Below are positions 1-49,387 of a stretch of 64,000 nucleotides of DNA, piece after piece. Position 1 is the stretch's first letter, and the number at the start of each line of letters is the position of its first letter. Source of the DNA: Marsupella aquatica (taxonomy: Eukaryota; Plantae; Marchantiophyta); contig OZ316896.1 of assembly GCA_973895155.1 (NCBI GenBank), positions 16,347,752-16,411,751 on the forward strand, read 5' to 3'. The position numbers and the translations under genes were made by a program. The notes under the pieces were generated by a model, which ran no database searches, had not been told where the DNA came from, and saw nothing but the letters and a program-made list of their open reading frames with translations.

Positions 1-39
1 TATATACGAGTCCGTCTCTACACAATTAAGATCAATAGT

Positions 40-191
40 GACGTTTGGAATTGATGTTAGCACTAGTACTTCGAACACCAAAGTACTGGACGGTGTTACC
101 ATTCAAATTCCTTGAGACGTTTGGAATTGATGTTCGCACTAGTACTTCGAACACCAAAGTACTGGACGGTGTTACCATTCAAATTCCTTGA
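40..191. repeat. 76-bp tandem duplication (40-115, 116-191) upstream of BTB gene 1
   Basis: GACGTTTGGAATTGATGTT(A/C)GCACTAG...CAAATTCCTTGA occurs twice with one mismatch. The paralogous region near 5835 has a single copy. Confidence 0.95.
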
Positions 192-649
192 GGATCATTA
201 CGGTCTACTAACGAGTTACGTGACCCAGATTCGATCGACTCCTCTACGTTCGAGTACACAGTACTCCAACTGAATTTACGATCGACCTGACTTCTTCCCG
301 CTCAACTGCTCAACTGTGAGAAGGTGTCCAAGTGTATATATATATTCGAGGATAATAAATTCTGGGCAACTGCAATGTGTGACGTGCGCACTACTGCGAT
401 TCATATTCGTAAAACGAATGCAATTTCATGAGTTGAGTGCCTTTGATATCAAGAGACTGGCGTGCTCACTTACATGTAGTTTGTCGGTAACATCTTCGTG
501 CTAGGAAACTTACTACGCTCAGCGGGCAAATCAAGCAGCTGCATCCATCTCATTTTTTGAGCTTTATATGTAGAGTAGGAATACATACGCAGAGCATCCT
601 GTTCCTGAAATCCAAATTGGAAAACATTCATCTTTTATATTCGGGATTC

Positions 650-1793
650 ATGGGGAAGAAGGAATGTTGTACTCGCTGTTTAAAGTTGTATAGGAATTCT
701 AATTCTCCCAATTGGGGAAGCAGCACTGTTGTGCAAATCCCGAGCTGCCCCAGGTGTCTCGTGCGTCATGAGAATGAAGTCTACAAGATCAATAGTGACT
801 TTGAAACGAAGAAAGAATCTTACGAAAATGAGTTGTCAAAGAGTGCGCAAGAGTTGCTCGTACAGAAAACGATGTACGAGGAATTGATTTCGGTCCTGAG
901 GCTCGAGGTGAACCAGCTTAAGGCTGATAACAAGGAGGAGCGAAGTAAAGTGAAATTTTTGCAAGTTTTCCGCAGTTCTTCTCAACATGATGTAGTACTC
1001 GAAGTTCCTGGCCTCCAAGTCAGTGCACACCGCGCCATCCTGGTGAGAAATCCATATTTTTCTTATAATTTCTGCTGATGAATGAAGTAACATACAGTCT
1101 AGCGCCAGATTAACTTTTCTTCAAAATGCTCGTTTTGACGTGGAGCGAAAACCTCGTTCGATTGTCCAGATCGAGCATCATTCTGGGGCTTTCTTCCGAA
1201 GTGACCTTTTGGGGCAGTGCTTAGGGATGTCATCGTTTTACTTGGAAACGTACATTAATTTGGTGTCAAAGAATCATTCTCGGAATCATTCAGCTATCAG
1301 AGCATTCGTTTGAGACTACTGGACATGCTGATGGCAAATGGTAGATGAGAGCATATCCTTTGTGTGCATTTTCCTGTTTGTTTGCGTTGACAGTGTGTTT
1401 CTACATGATGTACAGGCTGCGAGGTCACCGATCTTCCAGATGATGGTCCACAGTGGAACTGCAGAAAACCTGCCCAAGGTGATTTTAGTAGAGGATATAT
1501 CTCCTCCAGTCCTTGAAGCGATAGTAGATTTCTGCTACTCTGGGGAATTCTCATTTACGGAACTTGTGCCTCCTGAAGAGGTTCTCAAAATTGCACACAC
1601 GATGGAGCTTGCTCGTCTGAAGGAGCTTTGTGACATTGAGCTTTGCAGTGGGGTAACTGTAGAAAACGTACCACAGATGCTCAAGCTCTCGAGAAGGTTT
1701 TCAGCAATCAAACTTGAAGCAGCAGTAGGGAAGGTCTTCCAGGATCATTTCGAAATGCTGAAAGATAAAGTTTATGGTGCTTTGGAAGGCTAG
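650..1793 (+). CDS. BTB/POZ-domain protein (At4g08455/At3g56230-type: CxxC..CxxC + coiled coil + BTB), 256 aa; probable CUL3 adaptor
   Basis: Exons 650-1042 and 1416-1793 (GTGAGA..TACAG intron) join AHRAIL|AARSPIF. Also DVVLEV, VEDISPPVLEAIVDFCYSG, LKELC and N-terminal CTRC...CPRC. Confidence 0.9.
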
Positions 1794-2028
1794 GACCTGA
1801 TACGGTCACAAATTTCAATTTTATGGCTGAGGAACGGGCTGAGGGGACTCTGGATTTTGAGGACTTTAAACTCGCCTAGATTCATCCGTGAGGTTCCACA
1901 GATAGCACTAGTTTTCGTATAACTCCGGGATTCCCGATCGATGAATATGACAGAATTTCATGTGTAAGTAGCTAATTAAATTCCAAAACAAAGTGGATTG
2001 TTTTGTATTCATACTACTTAATTGGGCG

Positions 2029-2186
2029 AATTCTCCTGTTACAAATGGGCAGCATATATGTATTCCTCAAAAATCAAGAACTTACTACGCTGCTATTCTC
2101 TCAGCCTATTTTGATGGTGAATTCTCCTGTTACAAATGGGCAGCATATATGGATTCCACAAACATCAAGAAAGCCTATTTTGATGT
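2029..2186. repeat. Imperfect ~91-bp tandem duplication downstream of BTB gene 1
   Basis: AATTCTCCTGTTACAAATGGGCAGCATATATG occurs at 2029 and 2120. The paralog (~7843) has a single copy. Confidence 0.85.
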
Positions 2187-5100
2187 TATGAATGCTTGTT
2201 TGGTCACCTCCTACCAGAATCTGTTATTTGGAGAGTTTTCACACGAAGCGTGCTTCGTTTGATTGTATCCCTGTTCTCTGGTAGAAGCGTCTCTGAAATG
2301 AGCAGTTTTCCAACAAAAGAATCAAGTCAACAAGTTTCAAGAGTTGTAGACCACTTGCAAATCCAATTCAAGTCAACAAATTTCAAGAGTTGTAGCCCAC
2401 TGGCAAATCCATACCGGCTTCAAATGAAACTCGTTTCCGGCCCTCGATTAATTATGTTACAACTCTCACTTGGAAGAAGTGGTACCGAAATGTGCTTCCT
2501 TTGATTACGTTTTCTCACACTGCCCGAAGAGGTGGTGATGATGCGGATTTCATGATAGACAGCCCTCCTACTTACTGCTTCCATGATTCCCGATCTGCAG
2601 GTAGAATTTGTTGAATAGTTTTTATCTCGCACTGAGTGTGAATTTTCCGTTTCCCAATTCAAAAGAAGCTGTATTCCATCTGCCCTCAAGAGCTTAATTT
2701 TAATCTCCAAGAATCTTGCGCAAGATTAAGATTGAGTCTTTGTTATTTCAGGGCAATCCTCAAGTTTCTAGTCGAGAGTGGATGGGTAGTAGAGGTTAGC
2801 CCTTTAATCTCCAAAGAATCTTGGGCAAGATCTGAGTCATTTGTTACTTCTACCCTCTAGTTTCTAATGGAGAGGAGCAATTAGAATCCAGGAAGCAAGA
2901 GCTGCAGACCCTAGTAATTAAGTTGCAAGTCTGCTGAGCTCATGAGAAACTAGCTTAGTGAGACTTATCTAGTAGGAAGCACCTTGGACTGATTGTGGAG
3001 TCATTTCCAGGCTACCTATTTGTGACTTATCTAGTAGGAAGCTCTTGGACTGATTTTGGAGTTCCATATATGAATCATGGATGACCGACGGACGTGATGA
3101 CTGTAATTACACATATCACGAGTCGCAATACTTAAAGATTTTAACATATGAATTAATAATTGATGACTCGCTTCCCATCTTCCCCATGGTGTGGGTGAGT
3201 GCTTAAATTGTCTGTTGTGAATTGAAAAATACCGAAGTCTCAGTCGTTGATTGGAGGCCTGCCATTCATCCAATCGATCCAATGCATGTGGATGCAAATC
3301 TCAGTGACAGGGTACCGCAGTTATTATCTCAACGAAGTAGATTCAGTCGTGGAAATGTTACGGTACCTCGTGATCATGGTCTGGCTTCATCATTATCTCA
3401 GTAAGCTTCTTGTACGTCTGGAGGGCATTGACACTCCTAAAAGCTATGGGAGCAGTCACACCAGTCCTGGAAGGTATTGGAACATTGCTCTCAGTCACAC
3501 CATGCCTGAAAGGTATGGGAGGAGCCAGGGTTTAACCAGAAGACGGCCTCATTCAGTCCATGTACGCGGTACCTTTCAACAATCATGATATGGGGCTGCT
3601 GGTGATCCGGTTCAGAATGTGATTGGAGACTGAGACGTTCAATCTTTCAGGTACTACTTCTGCCACTTAGCCCTAAGTAGTTAATTAAGCGACATCCCTG
3701 TACTGAAATTGGAGTGTAACAGACTCTTTGTGGAGTTGGCGATTCTTTGGACAAGCTAACTTAGCACTGATCGCCATCAAAGCTTGAAATTGTAAAGGTG
3801 AGTCAATCGGCAGGTTTACTGAGCCGGTGCCAAGCACTTATGCGCAATCGTTTTTGACATGCAATTCAGTGCGGGCGACCCATTTTGAGTATGGCCACGT
3901 TAAATTTTTTTGCCTGAACTTGTTTTCTGGCGGGGGCCCAAAATGGCTCCAAAACATTTTGGCCACAAAATTAGAAACAGATTCTAAGACATACATGTAT
4001 TCTCCATAAAAATTCTGACAAACATACCTATTGTATACAGATTCTGATAAATATATCTTAGAAGGTGGAGTATTAAGGGTGTTTTAACAGGATGGACACA
4101 AGAGGACTCAGGAGGGGGGACATTATGCCTTTTGAAGCTTTTCTTCCTTTTTCTAAAGAGAAGGGGCCATACACTGATTAAGAGCATCTTTTAATGATGA
4201 TTTTATGGTGTGTCTTTTAAGAAACTGAAAGGATGATCCTTTCCCTACCAAATCCTGTGAACAGCACCAAAAAGGCAATGGTTCATTTCATTGTCGGGTT
4301 TGAGTCTCAAGATTGTTTTGGTAAGCAAATGACCCTTGCAACTACAAATTTGTCCAACATTGTCGAGCAAAAGTATTATTAGCTACTCTTCTTCTTAACA
4401 CAACCAGGTGTGTAACTAGTACAGTCATTAGGTTGGCCAAGACTGATCTCCTAAGTCAAGGTTGGGGTACATTGGCAAGAATGCTTCTAAATGAAATTAT
4501 TCCTAATTACTCAAACCCAAATTATATGGAGTTATGGTACATTGGTGAAATCAATGTCAAATCCTAAGCAGCGCTCTTTGGCTCATCCACACTAAATTCC
4601 ACATCTTTGCCCAGTATATATTGGAGTGCATAAGCATTAGATGTTGCTACACAATGGCGCATCATTCTCCACAACAATTAGTCAGCCTTGATTGCCGTTG
4701 CAGAAATTAACTTGTTAACAGGAACCTGACTCAAAGCCTGCCACTAAGGTTCATGAGGGGGAACTAAACATCCCAAGTACATCATTTGAGTCATGCCCCC
4801 AGCCATATCTTGTTGGTCAAAACTACCAGCTGGGAAACAAAACTACCAACTGGGAACCGAGAGGTCTAGGCCAGGGTCTAGGGTTCAATTGTAACTTCTA
4901 ACTACTGCAATTATACAAGAAAATTAATAGTAATCCTTTTGAGGGTAGGAAATCATGAGAGAACCTGGGTTCCTTCTCAAGGTTTCAAATGCAGAGGCTG
5001 CTCATATTAATTGTGCTCATATTAATTGTTTGACGGTGGTCAAAATCATCTGCATAACCATGGATGTATCAGTTCTGCATAGTCATGGGCAGGCTAGTTG

Positions 5101-5762: not shown

Positions 5763-8548
5763 CATACATGAGAGTCCGTCTCCACTCTCTAGCCCTGAAC
5801 ATGGCCGACGGTTTACACAATTAGGATCAATAGTGACGTTGGAATTGATGTTAACACTAGTACCTCGAACATTAAAGCACTAGTGCTAACATTCATTCAG
5901 GATTATTACGGTGTACTAACACTTCCGTGACCCACATCGATCCAGTCCTCTACGTTCGAGTACGCTTACTAGTCGAAACTGAATTTCCGATCGACTTGAC
6001 TTCTTCCCGCTCAACTGATCAAACTGTGAGATCGAGGGTGTCCAACTGTATATATATTCGAGGACAAAAATTGTAGGGCAAGTTCTGCAATATGTGACTA
6101 GCGCACTACTGAGATTCAAGTTCGTAGAAGGTATGCGATTTCATCAGCTGAGTGCCTTTTGTTTCTAGATAATCGATATCAAACACTGGCGTGCTCACTT
6201 ACATCTGGTTGTTCGTCAGCGTCTTCTTGTTAGGAAAATTCCTTACTAAGCAGCTGCATTCCATCTCATTTTTGAGCTGTATATCTAGAATAGTAAATAC
6301 GAATTCAGTTCCTAAGTCCAAATTGGAGAACTTTCATCTTCTATACTAACCATATCTGGGCTTCATGGGGAAGTCGGAACATTGTACTTACTGTATAGAG
6401 TTCTATAGGAGCTCTATTTCTCGCACTTGGGGAACCAGCAATCGTGTTGTGGAAATCCCGGGCTGCACCAAGTGTCACACTCGTCATGAGAATGAAGTCT
6501 CCCAGCTCAAGGCTGCCTTTGAAAGGCAGAAAGAAGATCACGAAACTGAATTGTCGAACAGTGTGCAAGACTGTCGCACTCGTCATGAGAAAGAAGTCTC
6601 CAAGCTCAAGGCTGACTTGGATAAGCAGAAAGAATATTACGAAACTGAATTGTCGAACAGTGTGCAAGCCTTGATAATACAAGAAACGAGTTACGAGGAA
6701 TCCGTTTCGGTGTTGAGGCTGAACTCGAGCATCGACGTGAACCAGCTTAACGCTGATAACAAAGAGCAGCGAAGTAAAGTGAAATTTCTTCAAGTTTTCC
6801 GCGATTTTTCTGAACCGGATGTAGTACTCGAAGTTCCTGGCCTCCAAATCAGTGCACACCGCGCCATCTTGGTGAGAAACTCATATTGTTCTTATTTTTG
6901 CTGATGAGTGAAATAGCATACAGCCTGACACCAACTCTTCTTTACTTTTCTTCAGAATGCTAGTTTAGACGTGGAGCGAAAACGTCGTTCGATCGTCCAG
7001 ATCGAGGTCATTGTGGCCTCTCTTACGAAGACGTGACCTTTTGGCGCAGTGATTAGGAATGTCATCGTTTATCCATTCTTGGAAACGTATCTTAATTTGG
7101 TGTCAAAAAATCTTTCAGCTGTCATCTGAGCATTATTTTAAAGGTGCTGGACATTCCGAAGGCAAATGGTGGTGATGTATCTTCCGGTTGTTTGCGTTGA
7201 CAGTGTGTTTCTACATGATGTACAGGCTGCGAGGTCACCGGTCTTCCGGCAGATGGTCTACACTGGAATTGTAGAAAACCCGCCCAGCGTGATTAAAGTT
7301 GAGGATATATCGTCTCCAGTCCTTGAAGCGATAGTAGATTTCTGCTACTCTGGGGAATTCACCTTTACCGAACTTGTGCCTCCTGATGAGGTTCTCAAAG
7401 TAGCACACACGTTTGGGCTTGCTCGTCTGAAGGAGCTATGTGACATTCAGCTTTGCCGAATAGTCACTGTAGACAATGTGCCACAGATGCTCAAACTCTC
7501 GAGAAGGTTTTCAGCAATCAAACTTGAAGCAGTATCAGGGAAGGTCTTCAAGGATCATTTCGACATGCTGAAAGATAAAGTTTATGGTGCTTTGGAAAGC
7601 TAGGACCTGCTACGGTCCCCAATTTCAATTTGAGATTGTGGCTGAGGGGCTGGGAGACTCCAGATTTTGAGGATTTTAAACTAGCTTAAATTCATCCGTA
7701 AAGTTCAATTCCACAGATAGCACTAGTTTGCGGAGGTCTGGGATTCCCGATCATAGACTCTGACATAGTTTGATACGTCTAAGTAGCGAATTAAATTCCA
7801 AAGCAAAGTGGATTGTTGTGCGTTCATATTGCTTAACTGAGAAAATTCTCATGTTACAAATGGGCAACATATATGTATTACACAAACATCAAGAAGTTAC
7901 TAAGCTGCGATTCTCTCAACCTATTTTGATGTCATGAAATGCTTGTTTGATCAACAAACTTATTAAAATCTGTTATCTAGAGAGTTTCACACGAAGCGTG
8001 CTTGGTTTGATTGTGTCCCTTGGTTTGATTGTGCCCCTTTTCTCGGTAGAAGCGTATGCGAACTGAGTGGTTAATTTTAGAGTTTTTTCAAGTTTATAAA
8101 TTTCAAAGTCCTAGACCACTTGCATATTGCCTTCAATTGAAACTCGGTTCCCTCTATTATGTTACAACTCTCACTTGTGAGAGGGGGTACCGAAATGTGC
8201 TTCCCATTCGCATTATCCCCGGCAGAGTGAGAAAATTTCAATCTGCTTCCCATGATTACGTTTTCTCACTCGGCCGGTGGTGATAATGCGAATTTCATGA
8301 CGGACAGCCCTTGTCCTATTGCTGGTTCCCTGATTCCGGATCTGCAAGTAGAATCTGTTGAACAGTTTTTATGTCGACACTCAGTGTGAACTTACCGTTT
8401 CCAGTTCAAAGTGCAGTGTTCGATCTGCCCTTCAAGAGGTTAGAGCTTTTAGTCTCCAAGAATCTTGCGCACAATTTGAGTACTCGTTTGTTATCTCAGG
8501 GCGATCCTTGAGTCATAGTCGAGAGTGCATGGGCAGTAGAGAGGTTTG
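5763..8548 (+). repeat. Segmental duplication copy 2
   Basis: Colinear with 1-2800. Confidence 0.9.
6365..7603 (+). CDS. BTB/POZ-domain protein paralog 2, 294 aa, with an internal 33-aa duplication
   Basis: Exons 6365-6871 and 7226-7603, with the same intron position and phase as paralog 1. AHRAIL|AARSPVF; CTYC...CTKC. Confidence 0.9.
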
Positions 8549-9251
8549 AGGAGATAGGATTGGGTGTTGGTGGTGTCCAAAACATCAATATTTTTCACTA
8601 GGTAGTCTGAATGTCAGGGATCACACCAAACAGTTCAATTAGAAGTCATTTAGTCAATGTTGGGGTTTATCAGAGTTAACATTTTGTAGGTTTTGTGGCG
8701 CCCCAAGTCAAATAGTGGTGCCCTGTGCAGCCCAGGTAAACCCAACTGCAACTACTGCAGAATTACAGTATTTTTGGATTACTATGGAGTGACTGTATTT
8801 TTTGGATTTTGGATGGCCGGCCTACCATCCAAGGGGCCTGATCAAGTACTCAATCCATCTTTGTCGTCAATCAAGTCCACAAGATGTGTCGTCAATCAAG
8901 TCCACAAGATGCTAGAGGAGCCCGGTTATGTCTTTCCTCCTTTAATCTCCAATAATTCAATTGCCAAAAATTTTGGACAACATGAGTGTCTTGTCAATCA
9001 ACCTTAAGTTTCTAATGGAGAATTTAATCTTGGGCAAGATCTGAGCCATTTGTTACTTTGGCACTCAAGTATCTAACGGGGAGTGCATGGGCAGCAGAGC
9101 CTTCCACTGCGTGCCATAAGTGATAGTCTAAGCCCACAATCTGAATCCCACAATCTGAATCAAATACTACCTTAGTGTCCAGCTCAAAACCAGCTGTTGC
9201 AGGTCACTCCAAGGTGTCACAGGGAAACCTTTGGTTGACATATATATGTCA

Positions 9252-9659
9252 CTAGCCCCGACTGTTCGTTCTTTGAACGTGAATAGCGGAGAGGACAATA
9301 AAAGTATTATCAAAATATATTCTCTATTCATATTCTTTGAAGGTTAATGAAATGATAAAAAAACTCATCATTTTAATAGTCATATATAATATAACATTCT
9401 CCTTTATGCGCACATCAGTCTTTTTGTATGCACATTCATCTTCTATGCACTATGTTGTGGTGGGGCCATAGTGCCATATTTTTAGAATGTAAATACTTAA
9501 AAATTATCACAAAATTTTTGCATGTATCAGTTGACATACATCATAGTCATGTCACCAATTTTTCCCATGCACATGATGGCCATAGAGTTACGATCTAGAG
9601 GCTTCACTCTAGACCTAGGCTCTTAAAAGTAGACCTGAGTTGACGCTTTTATAGTAAGA
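9252..9659 (-). mobile_element. Non-autonomous Helitron-like element, family A copy 1
   Basis: On the minus strand it starts A|TCTTACTATA and ends CTAG|T, with a subterminal hairpin (CGTTC-TTT-GAACG). Homologous to 10558-10782. Confidence 0.6.
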
Positions 9660-10089
9660 TGAACAGGAAATAGCAATTTGTACCCACCCTCTGCCCAAGT
9701 TACCATGTTTTGTTCAAAGGTCAACTGATAGTGATAATATTATAGCCCCTTCCCATGGAGTATGGGCCCAAATTTGGAGTAGGGGGCATCAAAGAAGGTG
9801 TTGTTTGACACATATTAAACAGAAACTTTACCATCTGAAAGTCAGATATTTCAATTATGTGAATTAAAGTTAGGAGTTGGGAAGCAATGGAAATTCCACT
9901 AGACCCTCCCTACCAAATTGTCAAGTAGGCAACTATATATCTACCTCATTATTTAGGGGGTGTCAAGACTGGGCCCATGGGGTCGGGTCCAACTGATTTC
10001 CCATTGACATCCTTCACAGAGTATCTGTCCTCCCTAACATGGAACTCAATTTTGCATTTCCAGCACAGAATTGTCTGTAAGAATAGTTA

Positions 10090-10240
10090 TCTTAATATAA
10101 ATCACAATGAGAAGCTAGAGTAAGGGTCTAGGCTTCTAGAGTGAAGCCTCTAGAGAGTGACTCTAGTGCCCCACCACAATTTCTGTGGATGGAAAGAACC
10201 ATGGGATGTCATGTATGATGAAATAAAATGATGGCCAAGC
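10090..10240 (+). mobile_element. Helitron-like family A, 5' part in opposite orientation (3' end not resolved)
   Basis: A|TCTTAATATAAA start followed by the family motif CTAGAGTGAAGCCTCTAG, the reverse complement of 9596-9613. Confidence 0.45.
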
Positions 10241-10782
10241 ATGATGCTATATTAACATTCAAATAACAGGCATTTAGGCTCGTCATTCAGTTTCCTGTGG
10301 CTGAGTTGTAAATAGGATTTCTTTGAGAATATTCAACTTTAACAATGCACCATAGCTCATAGAAGTTGAATGAAAGGAGCTTTCTGACTAGCCCCCCATA
10401 GCTTGATCTCAAAGTTATTAGCTAGACAATCAACAGGGGTTGAAGTCAGTAATTTTCAATGTGTGTGATTTAGGGTTAAACTAGGATTGTCCACTCACTA
10501 AATATTTGTGAAAGGGTTCACTCAAGCTTTTTAGTTCCCCATTATTTGTAATAGAAACTAGCCCCGACTACCTGTTCTTTGAACATGAATAGAGGAGAGG
10601 ACAATAAAAATGTCAACAAAATATATGTACTATTCCCATTCTTTGAAGGTGAATGAAATGATAAAAGAAACCATCATGTCTAGGCCCCATCATTTTAAAT
10701 CATCATACATATATCATAACATCCTCCTTTCTATGCACATATATTATTATGGTGGGGCCCTAGAGTCATGCTCTAGATTCTT

Positions 10783-11077
10783 TGTTAGGAATTGACTCTA
10801 GTTCCCGACATAGTTAGCTTGGCCTTACTAGGGTTAGTTTTAACCCTAGATTACATTAGGATAAGATCCGCTTAGTTTAGGCCCACTCATCTTGGCCCCC
10901 TTGGGGGGTATAGGCTGGAGGGAGAGCACTCTCTCCCTCATTCTTCACATGTATTCTCATTTGCTATGGAGCCTTCAAGAGTTTCTCCACTCGGGGTGTC
11001 TCGTCGGTGTAGCGTCTGATTGAGTGTCTCTCATGTTTCCGCATTGTTGTCTAGTCCAGAGCCGACGGTTTCTTACA
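10783..11077 (+). repeat. 5' LTR, 295 bp
   Basis: TGTTAGGAA...TTCTTACA; 3 substitutions relative to the 3' LTR by manual comparison. Confidence 0.97.
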
Positions 11078-11079
11078 AG

Positions 11080-11091
11080 TGGTATCAGAGC
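11080..11091 (+). promoter_or_regulatory. Primer-binding site complementary to the tRNA-iMet 3' end
   Basis: TGGTATCAGAGC, 2 nt after the 5' LTR. Confidence 0.95.
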
Positions 11092-12726
11092 TTCGTGTTC
11101 GTGGTTTGGTGGCTTGGGCAGTGGTGAGAGCGTTCGTTGTGTTGGATCGTGGTGGAAGATTGAATCATCGTCGATGATTGTGTGATTGTTTCATTGGTCG
11201 TTTCGTGTTGAAGGTTTCGTGAATACAGTGACGGTTTCCCGATTGAAACTTCAGCCTGGAGTGTCGGATGTGTCTCTGTTCTTTGAACTACTGTCAAGAG
11301 GACAGTCTAGCGATCTCTTATGCGCGTCGGTGGGCACTACGTTTTGGTGAAGGTTTCACTGCTTTTCATCATTGGTGTGCCGAGTAATCTTGTAGATTGA
11401 GGTTGCTGTTTAGAGCTTGATGCTCTAGGTTATGGCTTGTATATGTTTCGACTTAATCTTGTGTGGGGCCAAAAAAAGTTGTTTTCTTTGTAAAAAGGTT
11501 GTGCGTTGAGGGACCGGTGTTGCAATTTTTTTCTTTTCGTATACTTTTGTTTGTGCCGTCTCGCAACAGAATACGGTGGTGCGGACGGGTTTCTTTGCGT
11601 ATGTGCGGAGAGAGGGCGAAAGGGAAATTTTATTGCCCGGGCACGTTGTTCTATGCGCGCGAGTGAGCCAGGAGGGCTCAGAATACAAAGGACTAAAGGA
11701 GGATCGAGCTTTGAAGAAGTTGGTACGCTTGTACCTGGCTTGAGGAGGACTGTACTAGCATAGTACAGGCAAGCAGGTACGAGGCCTGGTGGAGCACAAG
11801 GTACAATGTGGTACATAAGTCTTTAAAGGAGCATAAAGTACATGTTTGGTACCTTGTACTTGACTGCATTAAAGGAGAGGAAAAGAGCATATGTGCTCAC
11901 ATCCTTTTGGGAACTATGGTGAGGGGCATATAAGGGCTTTGGAAGGTACGGTGGGGCATTAAACAAGCCCGGTACAGCAGCTACTTAGTGGAGTGGAGGC
12001 ATGGGGGAGTTAAATGATTCCTTTTCTTTGGAAACCTTTTACTAAGGCTTGAGGCATTGAGGAGAGCCAAGTATTTTGGTTTTTTAATTAGATTGCACCT
12101 CGTTCAAGATCCGAGTTGAGGGCTGGCACGTGGCCCTATGCACAAGGGGGGCGTATTTTTGCGAAAGAATTTGGAGGCCTGGAGGGGCGAGCTGTCGCCC
12201 TTGGTTCTTTTGTCACTTATTTAAATACAAGGGGTTTTCTTTCGCTGTTCTTCTTTTCTTTCCGCAATCAGACAGGTGTCAGTTCCATGTTCCTTCTGCT
12301 ATAGAATTCGACTGTATTTTTATTCTCTCCAAAAGATACTTTTCCAGAGAGCTGTTTTTTGGCCGAAAATTCCAATTTCGGCAATCGTCGAGGAAGAATT
12401 TTTCCGTAAGACTTAGCAAGGGGATGCTCAAGGGAGTTGAGCACGGGCCTGTGAAATTGATTTGCAGTTAACTATTGCGGAATTTTTTCGGGACCTAAGA
12501 TACCCAACGGGGGTCAAAACGGCCATTTTGACCCCCCTCCGGTCCGGGTTGAATAAGTTTTTGCTGAACAAGTTTTTCGCCGAATCATTTTCAGATCAGG
12601 GCAGTGTACCTTGCAGGCTACGCGGCGGTTCATTCTATTTCCAATTTCACCAACTTTCATTTCTTGGTGAATTTTTGGTTGGAAATATTTTGGTTGTGTA
12701 TTTCCTGTGTGTTTGTGGCAACATCA

Positions 12727-15230
12727 ATGACTTCAAGAAAGCTTGCAGCGCCGAAGTTTGAGGTGGAGAAGTTTGACGGGAAGGTCAGCTTCAGCCTCTG
12801 GACTCGAAAGGTGACCAATATGTTGATCCAGCAAGGTCTTGAGAAGACCCTCACTGGAGTGAAACCCTCGAATCTAACAGATGAGAAGTGGGAGGACATT
12901 CAGTGCAGGCATGTAGCACAATTGAGTTGTTCTTGGCAAACAACATTCTCAAGAACGTGTTGGGGATGGATCGGAATGCCAAGAAGATCTGGGATATGCT
13001 TACTCAGCTATACCAGAGTACTTCGTTGACTACTCGCATTTATCACTTGGAGCGGCTGTTCAGGTTGAAGTTGAAGGATGGTGGCAACATGCGTGATCAC
13101 CTCAGTCTCTTCGATGAGATTGTGCACGAGGTGACCACGGTAGGAGACAAGTTGACCGATGAGTATCTTGCAATGCATTTGTTGATGTTGCTTCCTCAGA
13201 CCTATTCAACATTGGTGACGGTCATCACACATGACAAGTCTACGTTGAAATTGGATGAGGTGAAGGCTACCGTTCTTGCAGAATGGGGCAAGCGACAACT
13301 TTCTGGCCGTGACAATGAGTCTGCTGCCTTAGTGGTTAGAGGCAGATCGACGGAGCGTACTACGGATCAGTCTAGATCTAAATCACATAGTAGATCTAAA
13401 TCTAAGTCCCGTAGTAAGAAAGTTCAGTGTTGGCATTGCCATGAGAAGGGCCACACCAAGTGGAATTGTCCTTCTCTATCGAAGCAGAAGCGTCCTGCTT
13501 CCAATGGTGCGTCCTCATCGTCGGCTGGTATTGTGATTGCTGATAATGAGGATGCTGCTGAAGTGCTATGTATTGGTGCAGTGAATTCTGTGTATGACAA
13601 TAAATGGATGTTGGATTCGGGTTCCTCTTATCACGTGTGTCCAACGCAATCGTATTTCTCCACTTACCAACCTTGTACCGGTACTGTGGAAATCGGAAAT
13701 GGAGTCCGATGTGCGATTGTTGGCATGGGGACTATCAAATTCCGGATGTTTGATGGTGTTGTGCGAGCACTGACGCAAGTCAGACACATACCAGACATCT
13801 CTAAGAATTTGATTTCTCTTGGTGCTTTGCAAGCCGGTGGATCTCATTTCACTGCATGTGATGGTGCGCTCTTTGTCGTCAAAGATGATGTATCTTTGAT
13901 TAAGGCGCTACGTCAGAATAATTTGTACATCTTGGAAGGAGATGTCATTGCTCCTAGAGTGGAGCATGTGGATTTTGTGGTGGAACATTCGGATGCAGCG
14001 GCAACATCTGCTATAGAGTCATCTATGGCTGCTTCAATTGAAGCACCCTCAACATCTAGTCGCACACAAGCCATAGATTTGTGGCATGCACGGTTGGGGC
14101 ACTTGAGTGGTAAAGGATTGGCAGCCTTGGCAAACAGAGATTTGTTGCAAGGCGCTCAATCTGGTAAACTCTCTTTCTATGAAGATTGCATCTTCGGCAA
14201 GCAGAGGAGAGTGAGTTTCAGTTCTAGTTCATACCATTCTCATGAAATTCTTGAGTATGTACATTCGGATGTTTGGGGTCCAGCTCCGGAGCCGTCGTTG
14301 GGTGGAGCCAAATATTTTGTGACGTTTGTAGATGATTACTCTCGAATGTGTTGGTTGTACTACATGAAGGAGAAGTCTCAAGTCTTTGAGATTTTCAAGG
14401 AGTGGAAAGCCATAGTAGAGCTACAAACTGGGAAGGAGTTGAAGTGTGTTCGGTCCGATAACGGTGGCGAGTATAAGTCCAATGAGTTTGATCAATTTGG
14501 TCGGGACCTTGGCCTCAAGCGTCATTACACTGTACCGGAGACCCCGCAACAGAATGGAGTTGCAGAACGGTTGAATCGGACATTATTGGAGAAAGCACGC
14601 AGCATGCTATGTAAGTCCAAATTGCCCAACAACTTTTGGGCTGAAGCTGTCAACCAAGCTGCATACGTCTACAATCTGTCACCGCATAGTAGTAAATTGA
14701 TGCAGACTCCATTTGAGTTGTGGTATAAGAGACCTATTGATTACTCTAGACTCCGAGTTTTTGGTTGTGCTGCCTATGTTCACATTGAGCAGACACACAG
14801 GTCTAAGTTGGATCCCAAGTCTAGGAAATGTATTTTTCTAGGCTTTAGTCCTGGGCAGAAGGGCTATAAATTGTGGGATCCTGTCGATTGCAAGGCAGTT
14901 GTGAGCAGAAATGTTGTTTTTGACGAAGAATGGTTGTCAAGACCCCGGGATATTCAGGAGGAACAGGTGGAGGAACCCACTACGGTGGAGCTTGGTGGTG
15001 ATGAGGAAGCTGCTGGTCCCTCTGGTAGAGGAGCAATTCCTCAACCAAGGCGCTCCACCAAGGCCAATTTTGGCCAACCCCCTGATAGATTTGGTTTTGC
15101 AGATCCTCGTGTTCATGTTGTTGAACATGACGATGATCCCGGTGTTGTTTTGCTTACTGAAGATGGAGACCTTAAAACTAACCCTAGTAAGGCCAAGCTA
15201 ACTATGTCGGGAACTAGAGTCAATTCCTAA
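12727..15230 (+). pseudogene. Copia gag-protease-integrase polyprotein with a frameshift near 12908, truncated before RT
   Basis: KFEVEKFDGKVSFSLW; zinc knuckle CWHCHEKGHTKWNC; protease WMLDSGSSYHVC; LWHARLGH (CxxC changed to YEDC); integrase HSDVWGP, RSDNGGEY, QQNGVAER, QKGYKLWDP. The last ~18 codons derive from inverted LTR sequence. Confidence 0.93.
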
Positions 15231-15430
15231 CAATCTCCACCTTGACTCAAGTTCACACAATGAGTCAGGTGATATACAATATGTAACTAAGTAACATATT
15301 TACATAGTCACTGGTTTGGCCCTAACATTAATAATATCCACACAATGACTAAAGCTACTGGTAGGTAAAACTTTGGTAAGCATGTCTGCCGCATTCTCCT
15401 CTGAAGCCACCTTCTCCAGAAACATCTGCT
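15172..15430 (-). repeat. 259-bp inverted copy of 16025-16283 (RNaseH end, 3' UTR, PPT, first 61 bp of LTR)
   Basis: Base-by-base reverse complement with a single mismatch (15411 C vs 16044 T). Confidence 0.97.
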
Positions 15431-16155
15431 ATGAGAGTGATAGTGAGAGTGATAGACTGGCGATGAAACATGATCCCTATGATAGTGTTATGGGTAGTTT
15501 GATGTATGCAATGACATACACTAGACCTGACATTGCCCATGATGTTAGCATTTTGAGCAGATTTATGGCAAATCCTGGTAAGCTTCACTAGGAAGCAGTG
15601 AAGTGGGTTTTGTGGTATCTGAAAGGTACCTTAGATTGTGAGATCTTATTTGACGGTAAAGCAGACTCTACATTAGAGTTGGAAGGTTTTGTAGATTCAG
15701 ATTATGCTGGTAACTTGGATAACAGAAAGTCTACTACAGGCTATGTGTTTATGTTGGGTGGAGGTTGTATCAGTTGGAAGTCGGCAACTCAATCTTGTGT
15801 TGCGTTGTCTACTACTGAGGCTGAGTACATGGCTGCATGTGAGGCAACCAAGGAGCTGATCTGGCTACGGAGATTGGTGAGTGATCTGGGTCTTTCACCT
15901 GAAAGACCGATGCTGGTGTGCGACAGTCAAAGTGCTTTGCATCTGGCTAAGAACCCTGTGTTTCATGCCAGGACAAAGCACATTGATATTCGTTATCACT
16001 TCATCCGTGAGGTGATTGAGACGAAGCAGATGTTTCTGGAGAATGTGGCTTCAGAGGAGAATGCGGCAGACATGCTTACCAAAGTTTTACCTACCAGTAG
16101 CTTTAGTCATTGTGTGGATATTATTAATGTTAGGGCCAAACCAGTGACTATGTAA
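15431..16155 (+). pseudogene. Copia RT C-terminal remnant + RNase H, with an in-frame TAG at 15589
   Basis: PYDSVMGSLMYAM..TRPDIA..NPGKLH*EAVKW; GFVDSDYAG, STTEAEY, CDSQSA, FHARTKHIDIRYHF, NAADMLTK. Confidence 0.92.
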
Positions 16156-16211
16156 ATATGTTACTTAGTTACATATTGTATATCACCTGACTCATTGTGT
16201 GAACTTGAGTC

Positions 16212-16221
16212 AAGGTGGAGA
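16212..16221 (+). promoter_or_regulatory. Polypurine tract
   Basis: AAGGTGGAGA immediately before the 3' LTR. Confidence 0.85.
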
Positions 16222-16222
16222 T

Positions 16223-16517
16223 TGTTAGGAATTGACTCTAGTTCCCGACATAGTTAGCTTGGCCTTACTAGGGTTAGTTTTAACCCTAGATTACATTAGG
16301 ATAAGATCCGCTTAGTTTAGGCTCACTCATCTTGGCCCCCTTGGGGGGTATAGGCTGGAGGGAGAGCACTCTCTCCCTCATTCTTCACATGTATTCTCAT
16401 TTGCTATGGAGCCTTCAAGAGTTTCTCCACTCGGGGTGTCTCGTCGGTGTAGCGTCTGATTGAGTGTCTCTCATGTTTCCGCATTGCTGTCTAGTCCGGA
16501 GCCGACGGTTTCTTACA
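16223..16517 (+). repeat. 3' LTR, 295 bp
   Basis: Direct repeat of 10783-11077, followed by TSD TTCTT. Confidence 0.97.
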
Positions 16518-17123
16518 TTCTTTACTCTAGAAGCCTAGACCTCAACTTTGGCTTCCCCTTGGCACTTTATAAGTAAGATTTTTTTTTGACACACCCTATT
16601 GTCTTTGGCAATGGGCACGCTGGGGCAATGGGCAGTACTGAGCTATAGCCATATCTCAAGTCTTGTCAAACCAAGATGTATGTTTGGGTGTATGTTGGAC
16701 CATTGGAACATCCCAATGGGATACTTGTCCATAAAATAGGCAGTTGACAAGCTACCCATCATCCATGGCCACAGCTTGTGGTTGTGAAAGTCTCCCATAC
16801 TACCAAGAGTAGTTTTTTTATGACCATTGACACATCTAGGAGGCCAGGGCCCTAATTAGAACCCTCTAAAGTATCCAGGATGTACCACAGGATCTTGTGC
16901 TATTGACCAAGATAAGTCACTTAAACAGTGACAACAAAGTGGCATTGTAGTAATTTAAACAAGATAATGTGTAATCCCACTTTTTCTTTCTCCTGGTCCA
17001 TTTACAAAATGTGGGGAAGACTCTCTGGTGGTTTGATTATATAAGTTTTTTCCTAACCATGACATGGGCCTAAATGTACCACTATTCACCTTGTCCATGC
17101 CCAGCCTGTCACTCTTGCCATTT

Positions 17124-27371: not shown

Positions 27372-28099
27372 TTCCATGAGTACGAAATACACTACCAAAA
27401 CAAAAAGCCCTGCAGGTAATCACACATCAAAATATGGTAATATATGACGTGCACATCATCGATTTAAAGAAAATAACAAGGTTTGTCATGGTATGGAGGG
27501 ATGTCAACTTCAAGCCGGGAAACTAGTTGGGAGACTTTGAGCCCCCCATATGGCGTAGGAAATACGTTGTCATCATAATTAGTCTTACTCACACTGATTT
27601 AAGAGCGTCAATTTTCAGGGTCTACTTGTGAATTAGTTTTAGTCACACTATTTTTCATAACACTACTTTTGTACCCATGAATTAGTGTTATTGAAGTCTC
27701 GGGAGTGGAAAAATAGAGAGAACTATTTTGAAAATCCACAAGAATTAGGATTACTTTGGACTCAAGATTACCCATGTTTTACTAGCAATTTAAACAAAAC
27801 AAAAATTAAAAGCAGCCTGAAAACCTGCCAAAATTAGTTTTACTTGGACTCAAAATTACTTTTACCAAAATTATTGTTAGTGTAACACTAATTTTGTAGT
27901 AAGGCTAATTCTTGCATAACACTAATTACAATGAAGAGACTTGTAATTAACTATTGACCAGTAACTGGTAAAGTTCCCTACTAGTAATCCTGAGAGGAGG
28001 GTTGGATGCAATCATAATATACTCCCAAATCAAGTACAGTCAAACAAGACACGTTGTCATCCAACTAAAGTACAGTATATGATTGGCATCACAAAAGGG

Positions 28100-29097
28100 G
28101 AGATATATGCTTGATGGGCCCCCTATGAACCTTTCTTACCTGATGGGCCCCTAGGTAACGTTTTTTACCAAGTAGGACCCCTCTTAATGACCAGTACACC
28201 TGTTCTTGTGTGGTGCCTACACCTGTCCTTGTGTGGTGCCTACTATGTACAGTGACTCCAAGAAAACTGCACAGTTGAACCGTGCGGTTGACTTTACATG
28301 GTCGACCAAGAAACCACAAAGATTATTCGAGAGAAACCGCGAAAAGCGACTGCCACTGTCGAAATTGCAATTTGAAGACAATATGCATTATGTCTTCGGA
28401 TTCACTGGGTTAATGCCCGAAGACACAATGGATTATGTCTTCGAGTTCAAATTTTTACCGCATCGTGGGGTAGTTATTAGGTATGTTTTTCACGTTGCGC
28501 ACATGGGTTTTTCACAATGTTTTCATGCACGACTGTCAACGTCAGTGTGGGGTACCTCCAAATGTCCACAAAAAATATTCAAGTTCAATGTTCAGAATTT
28601 GCCTACTGCCGCCACAACAAAAATTGGCAAATGATTGACAATTGCGCTCAAAAAATGGTAATACTCCCCTGTGCAATGCATACAAACAATTTCAAAAGAA
28701 GACAGACCCAAAGGTGTCGGGGTACACCCTAAACCCTAAACCTTGAAACACAAGAAGACATAATCCATTGAGTCTTCAGGCATTAACCCATTGAATCCGA
28801 AGACATAATGCATATTGTCTTCAAATCATAGTTTCGACAGCGGCAGTCGCTTTTCACGGTTTCTCCCGAATCATCTCCGTGGTTTCTCGGTCGACCATGC
28901 AAGGTTGACCGCACGGTTCAACTGTGCAGTTTGCTTGGAGTCACCATACATAGTAGGCACCACACAAGGACAGGTGTAGGCACCACACAAGAACAGGTGT
29001 ACTGGTCATTAAGAGGGGTCCTACTTGGTTAAAAAAGTTACCTAGGGGCCCATCAGGTAAGAAAGGTTCACCAGGGGGCCCATCAAGCATATATCTC
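28100..29097. mobile_element. Non-autonomous Mutator-like (MULE) fold-back element with ~340-bp TIRs
   Basis: GAGATATATGCTTGATGG... vs ...CCATCAAGCATATATCTC. 28100-28441 is the reverse complement of ~28755-29097. TSD CACAAAAGGG (10 bp, or 8 bp if the TIR starts GGAG). Confidence 0.92.
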
Positions 29098-29585
29098 CAC
29101 AAAAGGGAGACCAAAGAAAGAACATTCTTTGAACTAATCTTGCGATGTGAACCTTACACCAACAGTCCCCAAAGCAAAACGTGTATCCAATCCAAGTAGC
29201 TATAATTAGTCAAAACAAACTATAAGAAAGGTTAGGAAAAAGTGTGTTATTTTGTGCTCCTACAACTCCAAGGACAGTCACGGCTTGAGAGGGGTTATTG
29301 ACTTATTAGACAAAATATCAAATTTTGACACTGCTATATATGGTGAATCCAATTTTCATGTTTTGTCTTATTCAGATTTTGTGTCCAGTATTTTGAACCT
29401 TGTGCCTTAACAAGGTGAATCATTTGTATCAAGTTGATTTTGAATTAACTTTGGACCCCTTTTAATCTTAGTTAACTTAGAGTAATTTGAATTTATTTTG
29501 GCTCCCCTCATAAACTTTTAATCTTTCCTTTCCCAAACACTCCTTAGCTCATAGGAGTGAGATATTTTGAACAATGTGCACATCT

Positions 29586-30426
29586 GAGGTATAATTATGT
29601 TTGATGGGACCCCTGCCAAAAGAAATTTATGTGATAGACCCTTATGAAACTTTTGTTACAAACTAGGCCCCCTTTGACACTTTTTGGGTCAGATGTACGT
29701 TCTTGTAAAGTTCCTATAAGGAGTTTTAGCTTTATATTATCACCAATAAGATCAAGTGTAAAGTTTGGAGTCAAACCATGCTAATGACAAACTACACCAT
29801 TGGGGGCACCACGGAGTAATGGCGGCCATAGCTTGATTGCAAGTTCATAAGTGAAGACAATATGGTTTATGTGTTCAGGTTTGAATTTCTACCATGCCAT
29901 CTGTCTTTAGGTTGCTTTTGACATTTCTTTTTGTTCTTTTGTCTAAGTTTGGAATGAATCCTCTACGTTTGGCCATTAGTCCCTACTGCAATGTTCAGAA
30001 ATTGTCAAAGTGTGGAACAAACACAACATAGTTGTTGTCTTCTCACATCTAGACCCCAAATTTGTCTAAGCATGGAAGAAACCAAGGATTTTTTGCTCTT
30101 GGCTGTTCCTGTGTTGCAGCTTTAAAAAATTGTTTGTGTGAAACAAAACCACCATGGAGGCAATCATAACGGGAAAAATTTGCTAAGTTCCACTCCTGGT
30201 TCAAGCCAAGAGTCCATTATGTCTTCAAGCATACATGTACACGCGGTGGACTATGACATGGAGTGCAACGGATTGTGATGGGAAACATACGGCTGACCTG
30301 CAGTTAGGCATCGCATAAGAACCATGTGTAAGGAACCTATGTAGGGGGCCTAGTTTGTAACAAAAGTTTAGTATGGGCCTGTCATGTAAATTTGTTTTGA
30401 CAAGGGTCTCATCAAACATATGCCTC
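29586..30426. mobile_element. Older, degenerate MULE-like element related to 28100-29097
   Basis: TIRs GAGG..ATGTTTGATGGGACCC..TTTTGTTACAAACTAGGCCCCCT / AGGGGGCCTAGTTTGTAACAAAA..CATCAAACATATGCCTC. Flanks TGCACATCT/TGCACAATT. Shares the internal motif GAAGACAATATG. Confidence 0.7.
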
Positions 30427-40700: not shown

Positions 40701-41931
40701 ATAATAGCCGCTCAAAAACTCAAGCTCCAGCTCTCATTTTTAGTGGCATTATATCTCACAATACCTTCTAAACTGGACTTTACTATATAAACAATGCCCT
40801 TCGTGATTATGGCCCACACTGCACAGGACTTCACTATATTCAGCAATCCACTCATCCTTCCCATTCATTACAACAGAGCATGCTTCAGTACCAATTTTAG
40901 CTATGGGTGGTGAGTGTGGACAATGCATATGTTACTGCCCTTTGTAATTATGGTCCACAATGCACAGTCTGTTACTATAATAGGGAGTCACAAAGCTTGG
41001 AAATTACAGATGATGAAATTTGGTCATAAAGAACAGGTCATGACTTTTTAGCAAGACTATGTAAAAGACTTTTTTGTTTTTTCTTCCACCCGTCTCTGTG
41101 ACCAATCCTGACTAATCCTTCTCTATAGTGACCAATTCTGGCTAATCCTTATGGCAAAAGTGACGAACTATGAATTCTGTAATCCATAACTTTTTGTGTC
41201 AGCTAAGGTACATGTAGGGAGCTAAGGTACCTCAAATTGCCAGCTTTGAGAAGGTAAGCTTTGAAGACAATAAGGACTCATTCATCCTTCCACTTTATTA
41301 CAGCATCAATACCAATGTCAGTTATGGGTGCTGAGTGTGGACAACGGAGATGCAGGTCGTGGTCGAAGGAAGGTCCGTTGAGTCCGTTGGCTCCTCATGA
41401 TATGGAAAAGAGAGTCGTATCTCAACTCCTGGTTTTCCTCTATATCCTGAAGGAGGAAATTCCAATGTGCACAAGGATACCCTAATCTTTCTCTCTCTCT
41501 CTCTCTCTGTTGCAACCTCAAGAGTGACGAGGGGAGAGAGTATTGTATTCGAGGCGTCACCACAATTCTGCAGGAGATTCGCATCCTGGGGAATCGTGCA
41601 ACAGAGCCTTGCAGCATCAATCAATTGACTGATTCTGCAGCTGAAAATGCCTGCGTGAAAAACGGAACCCAGAGAGAGAGAGGGTGTGAGAAGAAAAAGA
41701 AACAAACAGAGCATCTTCTTGGACCAGCTCAGAGGCTCCTGCCGAAATAGTCAACAGCATTGTTTCCTCGGTTCGATTCCTTGCTTGCCCGTTCGCTCCC
41801 CACCTCCGTCCCGTTCCGTTCAGTTCAGCCCCGGCACCATAGATTCGGACCCCACCTCATTGACGTTGTTGTTTTATATACACACAATTTCCACACTCAC
41901 GAAAAGAGACGGGGACAGAGAGAGAGAGAGC

Positions 41932-44900: not shown

Positions 44901-45160
44901 GATATCGGGCACTGGTGGAGAGGGACTTGGAGGTCGAAGTCACTGGGCTTGGTCGCGACGGTCGTCCAATTTGTGTAGAAGCAAGTGGTTGGAAAGCTCG
45001 GATTCTTCAGCATGAGTGCGACCACCTTGCCGGGACCCTCTATGTTGATAAGATGGTACCTAGGACCTTTCGAACAAAGGACAATTTGAGACTGCCTTTA
45101 CCTGCCGGGTGCCCAAAGCAAGGTGTTTGCAAACATTCTAGCAAAAGCCTCAAAGTTTAG
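41932..45160 (+). CDS. PDF1A: Peptide deformylase 1A (organellar), 4 exons; start codon uncertain (41932 or 42616)
   Basis: Exons to 42924, 44136-44225, 44568-44638, 44893-45160. Motifs [39 protein letters not shown] and the C-terminal LPLPAGCPK typical of type 1A. Confidence 0.93.
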
Positions 45161-48100: not shown

Positions 48101-49387
48101 ATGGAAAGCAAGTTCTGGAAGCAAACACGAGAGGAAGGGAAAAAAGCTGCAACAGCACTCCACATCCTTCCTTCCACAGTAGTTCTCCATGCCTGAGCTG
48201 GATGCTGGATGAGGTCAAGTGAGATCAGATGCCCTGAGCTACGCTGAGCAAAGGACCCACTCATAGGAGCTTCACCCAATAATAGGCTCATCATTCTGCC
48301 TCGACCTGTCCGCTCCAGAATCGTGGTGCAGGAACTCCCCCTTGTGTGAAACAACTCTAAATTGTACTAACGTACCATCTGCTTGCACATGGAGGATTCT
48401 CGTGGCCATGGATGCTTTGCGAGTATTGTTCATGTTCAACCAAGGGCTGAGAGAAAAATTGGATTTAAATGTTATGGGCTATGAGTAGGCATAGGATTCC
48501 TTTGCGTGTCTCTGTTTGAAGAAAAAGTGCTCCCTGCTTGTTGGGCCCCCCTTGGCCCTTTCGTCGTGTACAGTAAACGATTTTCGAGTCGCAGGTTCAC
48601 AGTCTGCTCCTCTGTCGGCGCGTGGATTCCATTCGTTTGTTCCCCAGATCCACTCAACATCAGGAGGCTTTAGAGGAACTCGAAGGCTGGCCTGTCTTTT
48701 TTCTTTTCTTTTCTGTTTTTACTTCTGTGTCTCAGATGCAGTTGTAACAGGCGAAATTTCCATCCTAAAGATTGGGCCATTTTTTCCCTATGTTTAAGAT
48801 GCAATCGTAATTGGCGAGATTTCCTTCATTGGGAACCCATTTTCTCATTCAACGTTGCCGAGTCTCTTCGCTTCTGACTCTTGTCCAGGTGCGTGCACTT
48901 CGTTTTGTCTGTTGGCGCTGATCTCGGTTGGTTCCGGACCAGAGGGTGAAGTATTGGGGATTGATTGCTCTGGTCTGGTCTGGTCTGGTTGGTCGCTCCT
49001 CTGGAAAGTCTGCCTGTGACGAACGTGTTGTCGATGTCCTTTTGGCACATGGCAAGCCAACACGAGATTATTCTTTCCTGGTGCGTTTGTGGGGATGATA
49101 CGTAATGCTTTACACTGCTGATTGCCTCCATCTCCAGGGTAGTTGTTGCCTTGCCTCGCCGGAGAACCGATGGATGTATGATCCGTCAAAGCAATTTTGG
49201 TCACTCGTCGGTTACTTTCTCCGTTTGGTTGATCTCAATTCCCTCTAAGCGATTTTGGTAGATTGATTGGTTAAATTGGCAGTAGGAAGGGAAAGAAGGA
49301 AGGATTGGACCATCGTCAGAACTGGAGTCATTTGTCTGTAACTTCACAGGAGTGTGTGAAAATTAGGGGATTGCCAATCTGTTCCCA

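What the first reader, a model, noticed from the sequence alone, without database searches (positions are those of the whole stretch)
15172..16283. Copia element whose RT is replaced by an inverted copy of its own 3' end: candidate hairpin-RNA 'killer' retrotransposon
Seen: right after the integrase-RT boundary (VLLTEDGD) the RT core, including YVDD, is absent. In its place is 15172-15430, the reverse complement of 16025-16283 (258/259). LTRs, PBS, PPT and TSD are intact. Inference: a transcript from the 5' LTR that ends in the 3' LTR would fold into a 259-bp stem with a 594-nt loop, covering the RNaseH end, PPT and U3 promoter start. Established: long inverted-repeat transcripts are diced by DCL enzymes, and maize Mu killer is an inverted-duplication derivative that silences MuDR in trans. 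This copy could silence its family in trans while keeping the cis signals needed to be mobilised by autonomous copies.
Basis: partly seen in the sequence, partly recalled or inferred. Interest (0 to 1): 0.88.

Follow-up and report, generated by a model that had tools for sequence, protein, structure and literature searches.

The report
Fold-back scar in dead liverwort Copia
A broken retrotransposon copy, likely from a liverwort, has lost its reverse-transcriptase core and carries in its place a backwards 259-base copy of its own tail, likely a one-off copying or repair accident that would fold into double-stranded RNA if transcribed, though no silencing role is shown.

Summary
A 5.7-kb Copia element has 295-bp LTRs (3 differences), a TSD, PBS and PPT. 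It lacks about 870 nt including the whole RT core; in the gap is a 258/259 inverted copy of its RNase H end, PPT and first 61 nt of U3. The host is likely a leafy liverwort. New details: the right joint holds a 10-nt filler duplicating adjacent sequence, the left joint is blunt, and the donor ends inside a 9-bp U3 stem-loop. This fits one snap-back template switch, during DNA repair or reverse transcription. The copy also has a gag frameshift, an integrase zinc-site change and a stop. The arms pair fully in folding. Nothing here shows transcription, siRNAs or silencing. The family is high-copy, and this copy's own leader sits at single-copy depth, so no daughter copies are evident. The two joints were not confirmed in independent reads. 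The idea is known (Mu killer, Ac killer, a nested EVD copy), and this scan has found similar fold-back Copia scars in other genomes. Verdict: a real scar with hairpin potential; a working 'killer' has about 10% probability.

The parts
10778..10782 (+). left target-site duplication (TTCTT)
10783..11077 (+). 5' LTR, 295 bp, TG...CA
   Evidence: 3 differences from the 3' LTR
11080..11091 (+). primer-binding site (initiator-Met tRNA type, identity recalled)
11092..12726 (+). 1.6-kb 5' leader; its middle (about 11640-12320) is shared by few family copies
   Evidence: depth table and pieces
12727..15171 (+). gag-protease-integrase region; frameshift near 12899; Tyr in place of the first Cys of the integrase zinc site (14178-14180)
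   Evidence: family contigs differ at these places
15172..15430 (-). arm 1: inverted copy of 16025-16283 (131 nt RNase H end, 67 nt with PPT, 61 nt U3), replacing about 870 nt including the RT core
15431..15440 (+). 10-nt filler; with its neighbours it forms a 12-nt tandem duplication (15432-15443 = 15444-15455)
   Evidence: family contigs resume at 15441
15441..16155 (+). RT C-terminus and RNase H, with a premature stop at 15589-15591
16025..16283 (+). arm 2: native RNase H end, PPT and U3 start (donor of arm 1)
16212..16221 (+). polypurine tract
16268..16289 (.). 9-bp stem-loop in U3; the donor breakpoint 16283 lies in its 3' arm
16223..16517 (+). 3' LTR, 295 bp; TATA-like word at 16349
16518..16522 (+). 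right target-site duplication (TTCTT)
   Evidence: LTR-flank contigs in X1, X3, X4

Best explanation
This is a non-coding Copia copy whose reverse-transcriptase core is replaced by a backwards copy of its own 3' end, likely through one snap-back template switch, and it is likely a single-copy scar that would give at most a minor hairpin-siRNA contribution. Inferred steps, following the minus strand leftwards: (1) synthesis or a broken end stops at 15441; (2) the 3' end slips back and recopies about 10 nt (the filler); (3) it folds back on its own single-stranded minus strand at 16025 and copies through the RNase H end, PPT and 61 nt of U3, stopping in a U3 stem-loop; (4) it rejoins at 15171, skipping about 870 nt. 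The geometry is the same for chromosomal break repair (loop-out plus snap-back synthesis) and for reverse transcription; I favour repair slightly, about 55:45. If the 5' LTR fires, the RNA would fold into a 259-bp stem and likely be cut by DCL3/DCL4 into siRNAs matching hundreds of family copies, which likely already carry host silencing.
For: Shown: deletion plus inverted insertion, with LTRs and TSD intact. Shown: a filler that duplicates adjacent sequence and a blunt left joint; loop-out synthesis gives direct repeats and snap-back gives inverted repeats at repair joints (PMC2943611, passages). Shown: both arms share letters at 16143/16145 and at 16278 where most family contig depth differs, pointing to this copy or a near-identical parent as donor. 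Shown: at the one arm mismatch, high-depth family contigs match arm 1 with no difference (X3 record 14, X4 record 22, X5 record 30), so arm 2 changed after the duplication. This argues for a historical event, not a read chimera. Shown: independent decay (frameshift, zinc-site change, stop). Leader pieces identical to this copy have the depth of the unique flank: X3 17.9/18/16.8 against 18.8, X4 11.6/10.9 against 12; reading this as single-copy is an inference. Internally truncated EVD insertions with two LTRs arise in Arabidopsis mutants (PMC10462705, passages).
Against: No positive functional test was possible, so 'minor role' is an inference from copy number and priors. A 259-nt templated patch from 600-850 nt away is much longer than the +/-20-bp events studied in PMC2943611. 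Microhomology is at most 2 nt at the right joint and absent at the left. The stem-loop at the donor end is weak support: two 9-bp stem-loops cover 44 of 1077 nt, about 8% chance for one of two ends. Arm divergence (1/259) and LTR divergence (3/295) do not differ (Fisher p=0.63), so repair and reverse transcription cannot be told apart. X2 leader pieces (46.5, 55.8) are below its flank piece (76.6), so depth ratios are noisy.
Confidence: 0.7

Rival explanations
1. Working 'killer' allele. The 5' LTR transcribes the hairpin, and DCL3/DCL4 siRNAs cut family RNAs in the RNase H/PPT region and direct methylation of U3 in trans, measurably lowering family activity.
For: Stem predicted fully paired. 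The 5' LTR looks intact. The arms match many family contigs at 97% or more. Muk and Ack show that TE inverted duplications can start heritable silencing. Marchantia has DCL3 and DCL4. LTR siRNAs act in trans on EVD (PMC11624286).
Against: The family is high-copy (summed contig depth in the coding part far above the flank in all four runs). The copy has decayed about 1% between LTRs. The stem covers only 61 nt of U3, upstream of the TATA-like word. Marchantia lacks DCL2. For EVD, hairpins were 'previously deemed unlikely' triggers in RDR6 wild-type plants, and the one antisense nested copy found was not tested.
Confidence: 0.1
2. Assembly or read-chimera artefact inside a high-copy repeat.
For: The element belongs to a high-copy family, where misjoins are more likely. 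Perfect fold-backs are a known chimera type (own knowledge).
Against: Arm 1 carries the family letter where arm 2 has a derived one, which a fold-back read would not give. The filler is a templated duplication. The window has no N. The flanks, the LTR-flank joint and the leader are present in independent runs.
Confidence: 0.08
3. Arm 1 is the remnant of a second family copy that inserted or recombined in antisense into RT and was later trimmed on both sides.
For: [quoted passage not shown] Template switches between two element RNAs are proposed for Triticeae elements (PMC1950507, abstract).
Against: Arm 1 starts at U3 position 61, not at an LTR end. It shares this copy's rare letters. The model needs an insertion and two further deletions.
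Confidence: 0.07
4. An amplifying non-autonomous hairpin subfamily mobilised in trans by intact copies.
For: LTRs, PBS, PPT and leader are retained.
Against: Leader pieces identical to this copy have flank-level depth in X3 and X4. The PPT lies inside the stem, and a long duplex would likely be diced or hinder reverse transcription (inference).
Confidence: 0.03

Closest known systems
Mu killer (Muk), maize; 10.1101/2020.01.09.900282 (passages seen)
   Same: A natural rearranged derivative of a TE with a deletion and an inverted duplication that gives a long hairpin.
   Different: Muk derives from a DNA transposon, includes the 5' TIR, yields mainly 22-nt siRNAs and is shown to silence active MuDR heritably. 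Here it is an LTR retrotransposon, the arms are 3' sequences, the lineage likely lacks DCL2, and function is untested.
Ac killer alleles p1-ww-id1/id4, maize; 10.1101/2020.01.07.897926 (abstract and outline)
   Same: Inverted duplications of element fragments that can be transcribed from the element's own promoter.
   Different: Made by alternative transposition; dsRNA, siRNAs and repression were shown. Here a template switch inside a Copia is inferred and nothing is shown at the RNA level.
Antisense nested and truncated EVD (ATCOPIA93) copies; PMC11624286 and PMC10462705 (passages)
   Same: Copia copies with two LTRs and internal rearrangements, one proposed as a hairpin trigger of silencing.
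   Different: EVD's case is a whole nested copy in a newly active family. Here the inverted part is a 259-nt piece of the element's own 3' end in an old, high-copy family.
Snap-back / loop-out SD-MMEJ repair joints; PMC2943611 (passages)
   Same: A deletion whose joints carry a direct-repeat filler and an inverted templated insertion.
   Different: Those Drosophila events are short and close to the break; this patch is 259 nt and comes from 600-850 nt away.
Rearranged endogenous pararetrovirus loci in tomato; PMC9868043 (passages)
   Same: Inverted-repeat rearrangements of retroelement-like DNA proposed as heritable hairpin-siRNA sources.
   Different: There siRNA peaks were mapped and the elements are pararetroviruses.

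Membership tests
Ty1/Copia LTR retrotransposon | Two direct TG...CA LTRs with a 5-bp TSD, PBS and PPT | tested here: met
Ty1/Copia LTR retrotransposon | gag-protease-integrase before RT-RNase H, Copia-type domains | tested here: met
   Pfam Retrotran_gag_2, Pol_BBD, gag_pre-integrs, rve; RT C-terminus/RNase H 53-57% identical to Copia homologues
Autonomous Copia element | Intact polyprotein with RT core | tested here: not met
   RVT_2 interval missing; frameshift, zinc-site change and stop
Tork/Tnt1 lineage | Placement by RT phylogeny against reference lineages | not tested
   The resemblance is recalled only; the RT core is absent and no lineage database was at hand
TE 'killer' alleles (Muk, Ack) | Inverted duplication of the element's own sequence | tested here: met
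TE 'killer' alleles (Muk, Ack) | Transcribed into hairpin dsRNA | not testable with these tools
   Needs RNA data for this organism; the fold is only predicted
TE 'killer' alleles (Muk, Ack) | Locus-specific 21-24-nt siRNAs | not testable with these tools
   Needs small-RNA libraries
TE 'killer' alleles (Muk, Ack) | Heritable trans-silencing of active family members | not testable with these tools
   Needs genotypes with and without the allele
Amplified non-autonomous LTR derivative | Several copies sharing the same rearrangement | tested here: inconclusive
   Leader at flank-level depth in X3 and X4 suggests one copy; no genome was held for a direct search

The most novel reading that the evidence does not exclude
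A natural, self-promoted 'killer' LTR retrotransposon in a liverwort. One fold-back event turns a Copia copy into a hairpin gene aimed at the RNase H end, PPT and U3 of its whole family, and it silences the family through a DCL2-free route. It would be a Muk-like trigger for an LTR family; I found none in print in the searches.
Probability: 0.1. Interest if true: 0.65.

Novelty: new member of a known kind. Interest (0 to 1): 0.27.

Why it matters
How plants first recognise and silence a retrotransposon family is open, and hairpins from rearranged copies are a proposed but little-tested trigger for LTR elements. This locus has unique joints that make the test simple: joint-spanning siRNAs and plants with or without the allele. 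If it is inert, it is still a clean record of a snap-back template switch in a bryophyte Copia, one of several such scars this scan has met.

Tried and rejected
1) Whole-genome search for the joints: no genome is held. 2) Expression: no RNA holder listed among 13 runs; this is no evidence either way. 3) Joint confirmation in Logan contigs (5 of 13 runs laid): none of the 32 pieces shown, of 339, bridges either joint. In the bin holding the filler, depth equals exactly the share from contigs that start at 15441 in X3, X4 and X5 (277.6, 98.4, 18.1); X1 cannot be resolved. I do not count this for or against. Logan contigs are simplified and lossy (10.1101/2024.07.30.605881, passages). As an internal control, X4 holds this locus's flank joint and leader yet shows none of the window's own letters at 12684, 13830, 14179, 14737, 14824 or 15490. 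X4 has no differences from the window in the flank pieces shown and may not be independent. 4) Intact close sibling: the protein search gave 37 hits, at best 41-42% over most of the length; metagenome contigs gave 71 loci, at best 54% (57% on one 51-residue piece); none is this family. 5) Dating the inversion against the insertion: not resolvable. 6) Rfam: 0 matches in 10500-17000. 7) A recalled 'kakusei' inverted repeat of ONSEN was wrong; the name is an Spm copy. 8) Searches for a paper on RT self-priming inversions returned nothing relevant, so that route rests on my own knowledge. 9) An apparent excess of G-to-A changes in the 40 rows shown of 517 was dropped, because the totals per run are balanced. 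10) Lineage search in the literature gave nothing useful. 11) No look-alike stretch or note for this genome in the scan's index.

Full report
Observation. The repeat search finds two 295-bp direct repeats (10783-11077, 16223-16517) and an inverted pair, 15172-15430 against 16025-16283, with 594 nt between the arms. Direct comparison gives 258/259 for the arms and 3 differences between the LTRs, with TSD TTCTT. Twenty shuffles of the internal region gave no inverted match above 45 bits. The long ORF carries Copia gag, protease and integrase domains. Full-length Copia homologues align up to the integrase-RT linker and again from about 15442. In P0122 the gap is about 289 residues (1 of 6 homologues gave both landmarks) and contains the whole RVT_2 domain. 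No RT core motif is left in any frame.

Host and family. A neighbouring cytidine deaminase has Calypogeia fissa as best named hit (76%), ahead of Marchantia (61%), so the host is likely a leafy liverwort. Thirteen runs hold parts of the stretch. Four were laid on the element: summed contig depth over the coding part is in the thousands to tens of thousands against 12-77 on the unique flank, which I read only as 'high-copy'. The 3' LTR-flank joint is present in X1, X3 and X4. X1 and X3 differ from the window at three flank positions, so the insertion is shared between genotypes. Pieces of the 5' leader identical to this copy have the depth of the unique flank in X3 and X4, which suggests that this copy has no near-identical daughters.

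Joints. Loose ends of family contigs show that normal sequence leaves at 15171 and resumes at 15441. The ten bases 15431-15440 are thus filler, and they form a 12-nt tandem duplication with the adjacent sequence. The left joint is blunt. The donor ends at 16283, inside a 9-bp stem-loop in U3; that coincidence has about 8% chance and is weak support. Both arms share letters at 16143/16145 and 16278 where most family depth differs, so the donor was this copy or a very close parent. At the single mismatch, family contigs agree with arm 1, so arm 2 changed after the duplication. That argues against a fold-back read chimera. The joints themselves were not confirmed in independent data (see Tried and rejected).

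Mechanism (inferred). Following the minus strand leftwards, one event explains everything: a stop at 15441, a short slip that makes the filler, a fold-back onto the strand's own earlier part at 16025, copying to U3 position 61, and a rejoin at 15171. Loop-out and snap-back synthesis give such direct and inverted repeats at repair joints (PMC2943611, passages), though at a much smaller scale. The same geometry is possible during reverse transcription, when RNase H leaves the minus strand single-stranded; this rests on my own knowledge, as two searches found no paper on it. Arm and LTR divergence do not differ (p=0.63), so the timing is open. The copy also has a gag frameshift, a Tyr at an integrase zinc ligand and a stop after the right joint, consistent with ordinary decay.

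Function. Any RNA from the 5' LTR to the 3' R region would pair 258 of 259 arm bases (whole fold). The stem holds 131 nt of RNase H, 67 nt including the PPT, and 61 nt of U3, ending 66 nt before the TATA-like word. Marchantia has DCL3 and DCL4 but no DCL2 (PMC11799827, passages), so dicing is plausible but not by the 22-nt route prominent for Muk (10.1101/2020.01.09.900282, passages). Whether the locus is transcribed could not be tested. Muk and Ack were recognised because they silenced active elements; in a high-copy family that likely already draws host silencing, one aged hairpin copy would likely add little. I put a measurable killer role at 0.1.

Comparison and novelty. It would work like Muk or Ack if transcribed, but only the structural criterion of that class is met here. 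Hairpins from rearranged Copia copies have been proposed for EVD and not tested (PMC11624286, passages). Truncated two-LTR copies are reported (PMC10462705, passages), and LTR palindromes are discussed as hairpin-siRNA sources in maize Sireviruses (PMC4728375, abstract). Three searches listed no paper describing this exact layout or a proven LTR-retrotransposon killer; subscription journals are mostly outside the library, and I saw no supplements. The scan's own notes describe similar fold-back Copia scars in other genomes; these are unchecked and are not support. Verdict: new member of a known kind, interest 0.27.

Noticed in passing
window 10557-10782 and 16518-16580: The Copia sits inside another high-copy repeat: depth jumps at 10557 with many loose ends, and contigs join about 10770 to 16520 across the element. 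Partial copies lie at 9251-9415 and, inverted, at 10089-10246.
   Followed up: partly
window 28099-29098: Inverted repeat with 345-nt arms at 93% and about 311 nt between them; MITE- or Mutator-like.
   Followed up: no
window 29596-30420: A second, older inverted pair (78 nt, 86%) weakly related to the 28099-29098 arms.
   Followed up: no
window 1-2900 and 5800-9100: Tandem duplication with about 5.8-kb spacing, each unit carrying a BTB/POZ gene.
   Followed up: partly
window 11640-12320: The middle of the element's long 5' leader is shared by only a few family copies, while the rest is high-copy: a fast-evolving or sub-lineage leader.
   Followed up: partly
window 16358-16379: A second 9-bp stem-loop in the LTR, just after the TATA-like word.
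   Followed up: no
window 41659-45160 and 49367-50587: Host genes: a split peptide deformylase and an intronless cytidine deaminase.
   Followed up: partly
window 15584-15727 (family contigs in X1, X2): Other family copies carry a 142-nt deletion with a 7-nt filler here, and further internal deletions, so deletion-with-filler events recur in this family.
   Followed up: no
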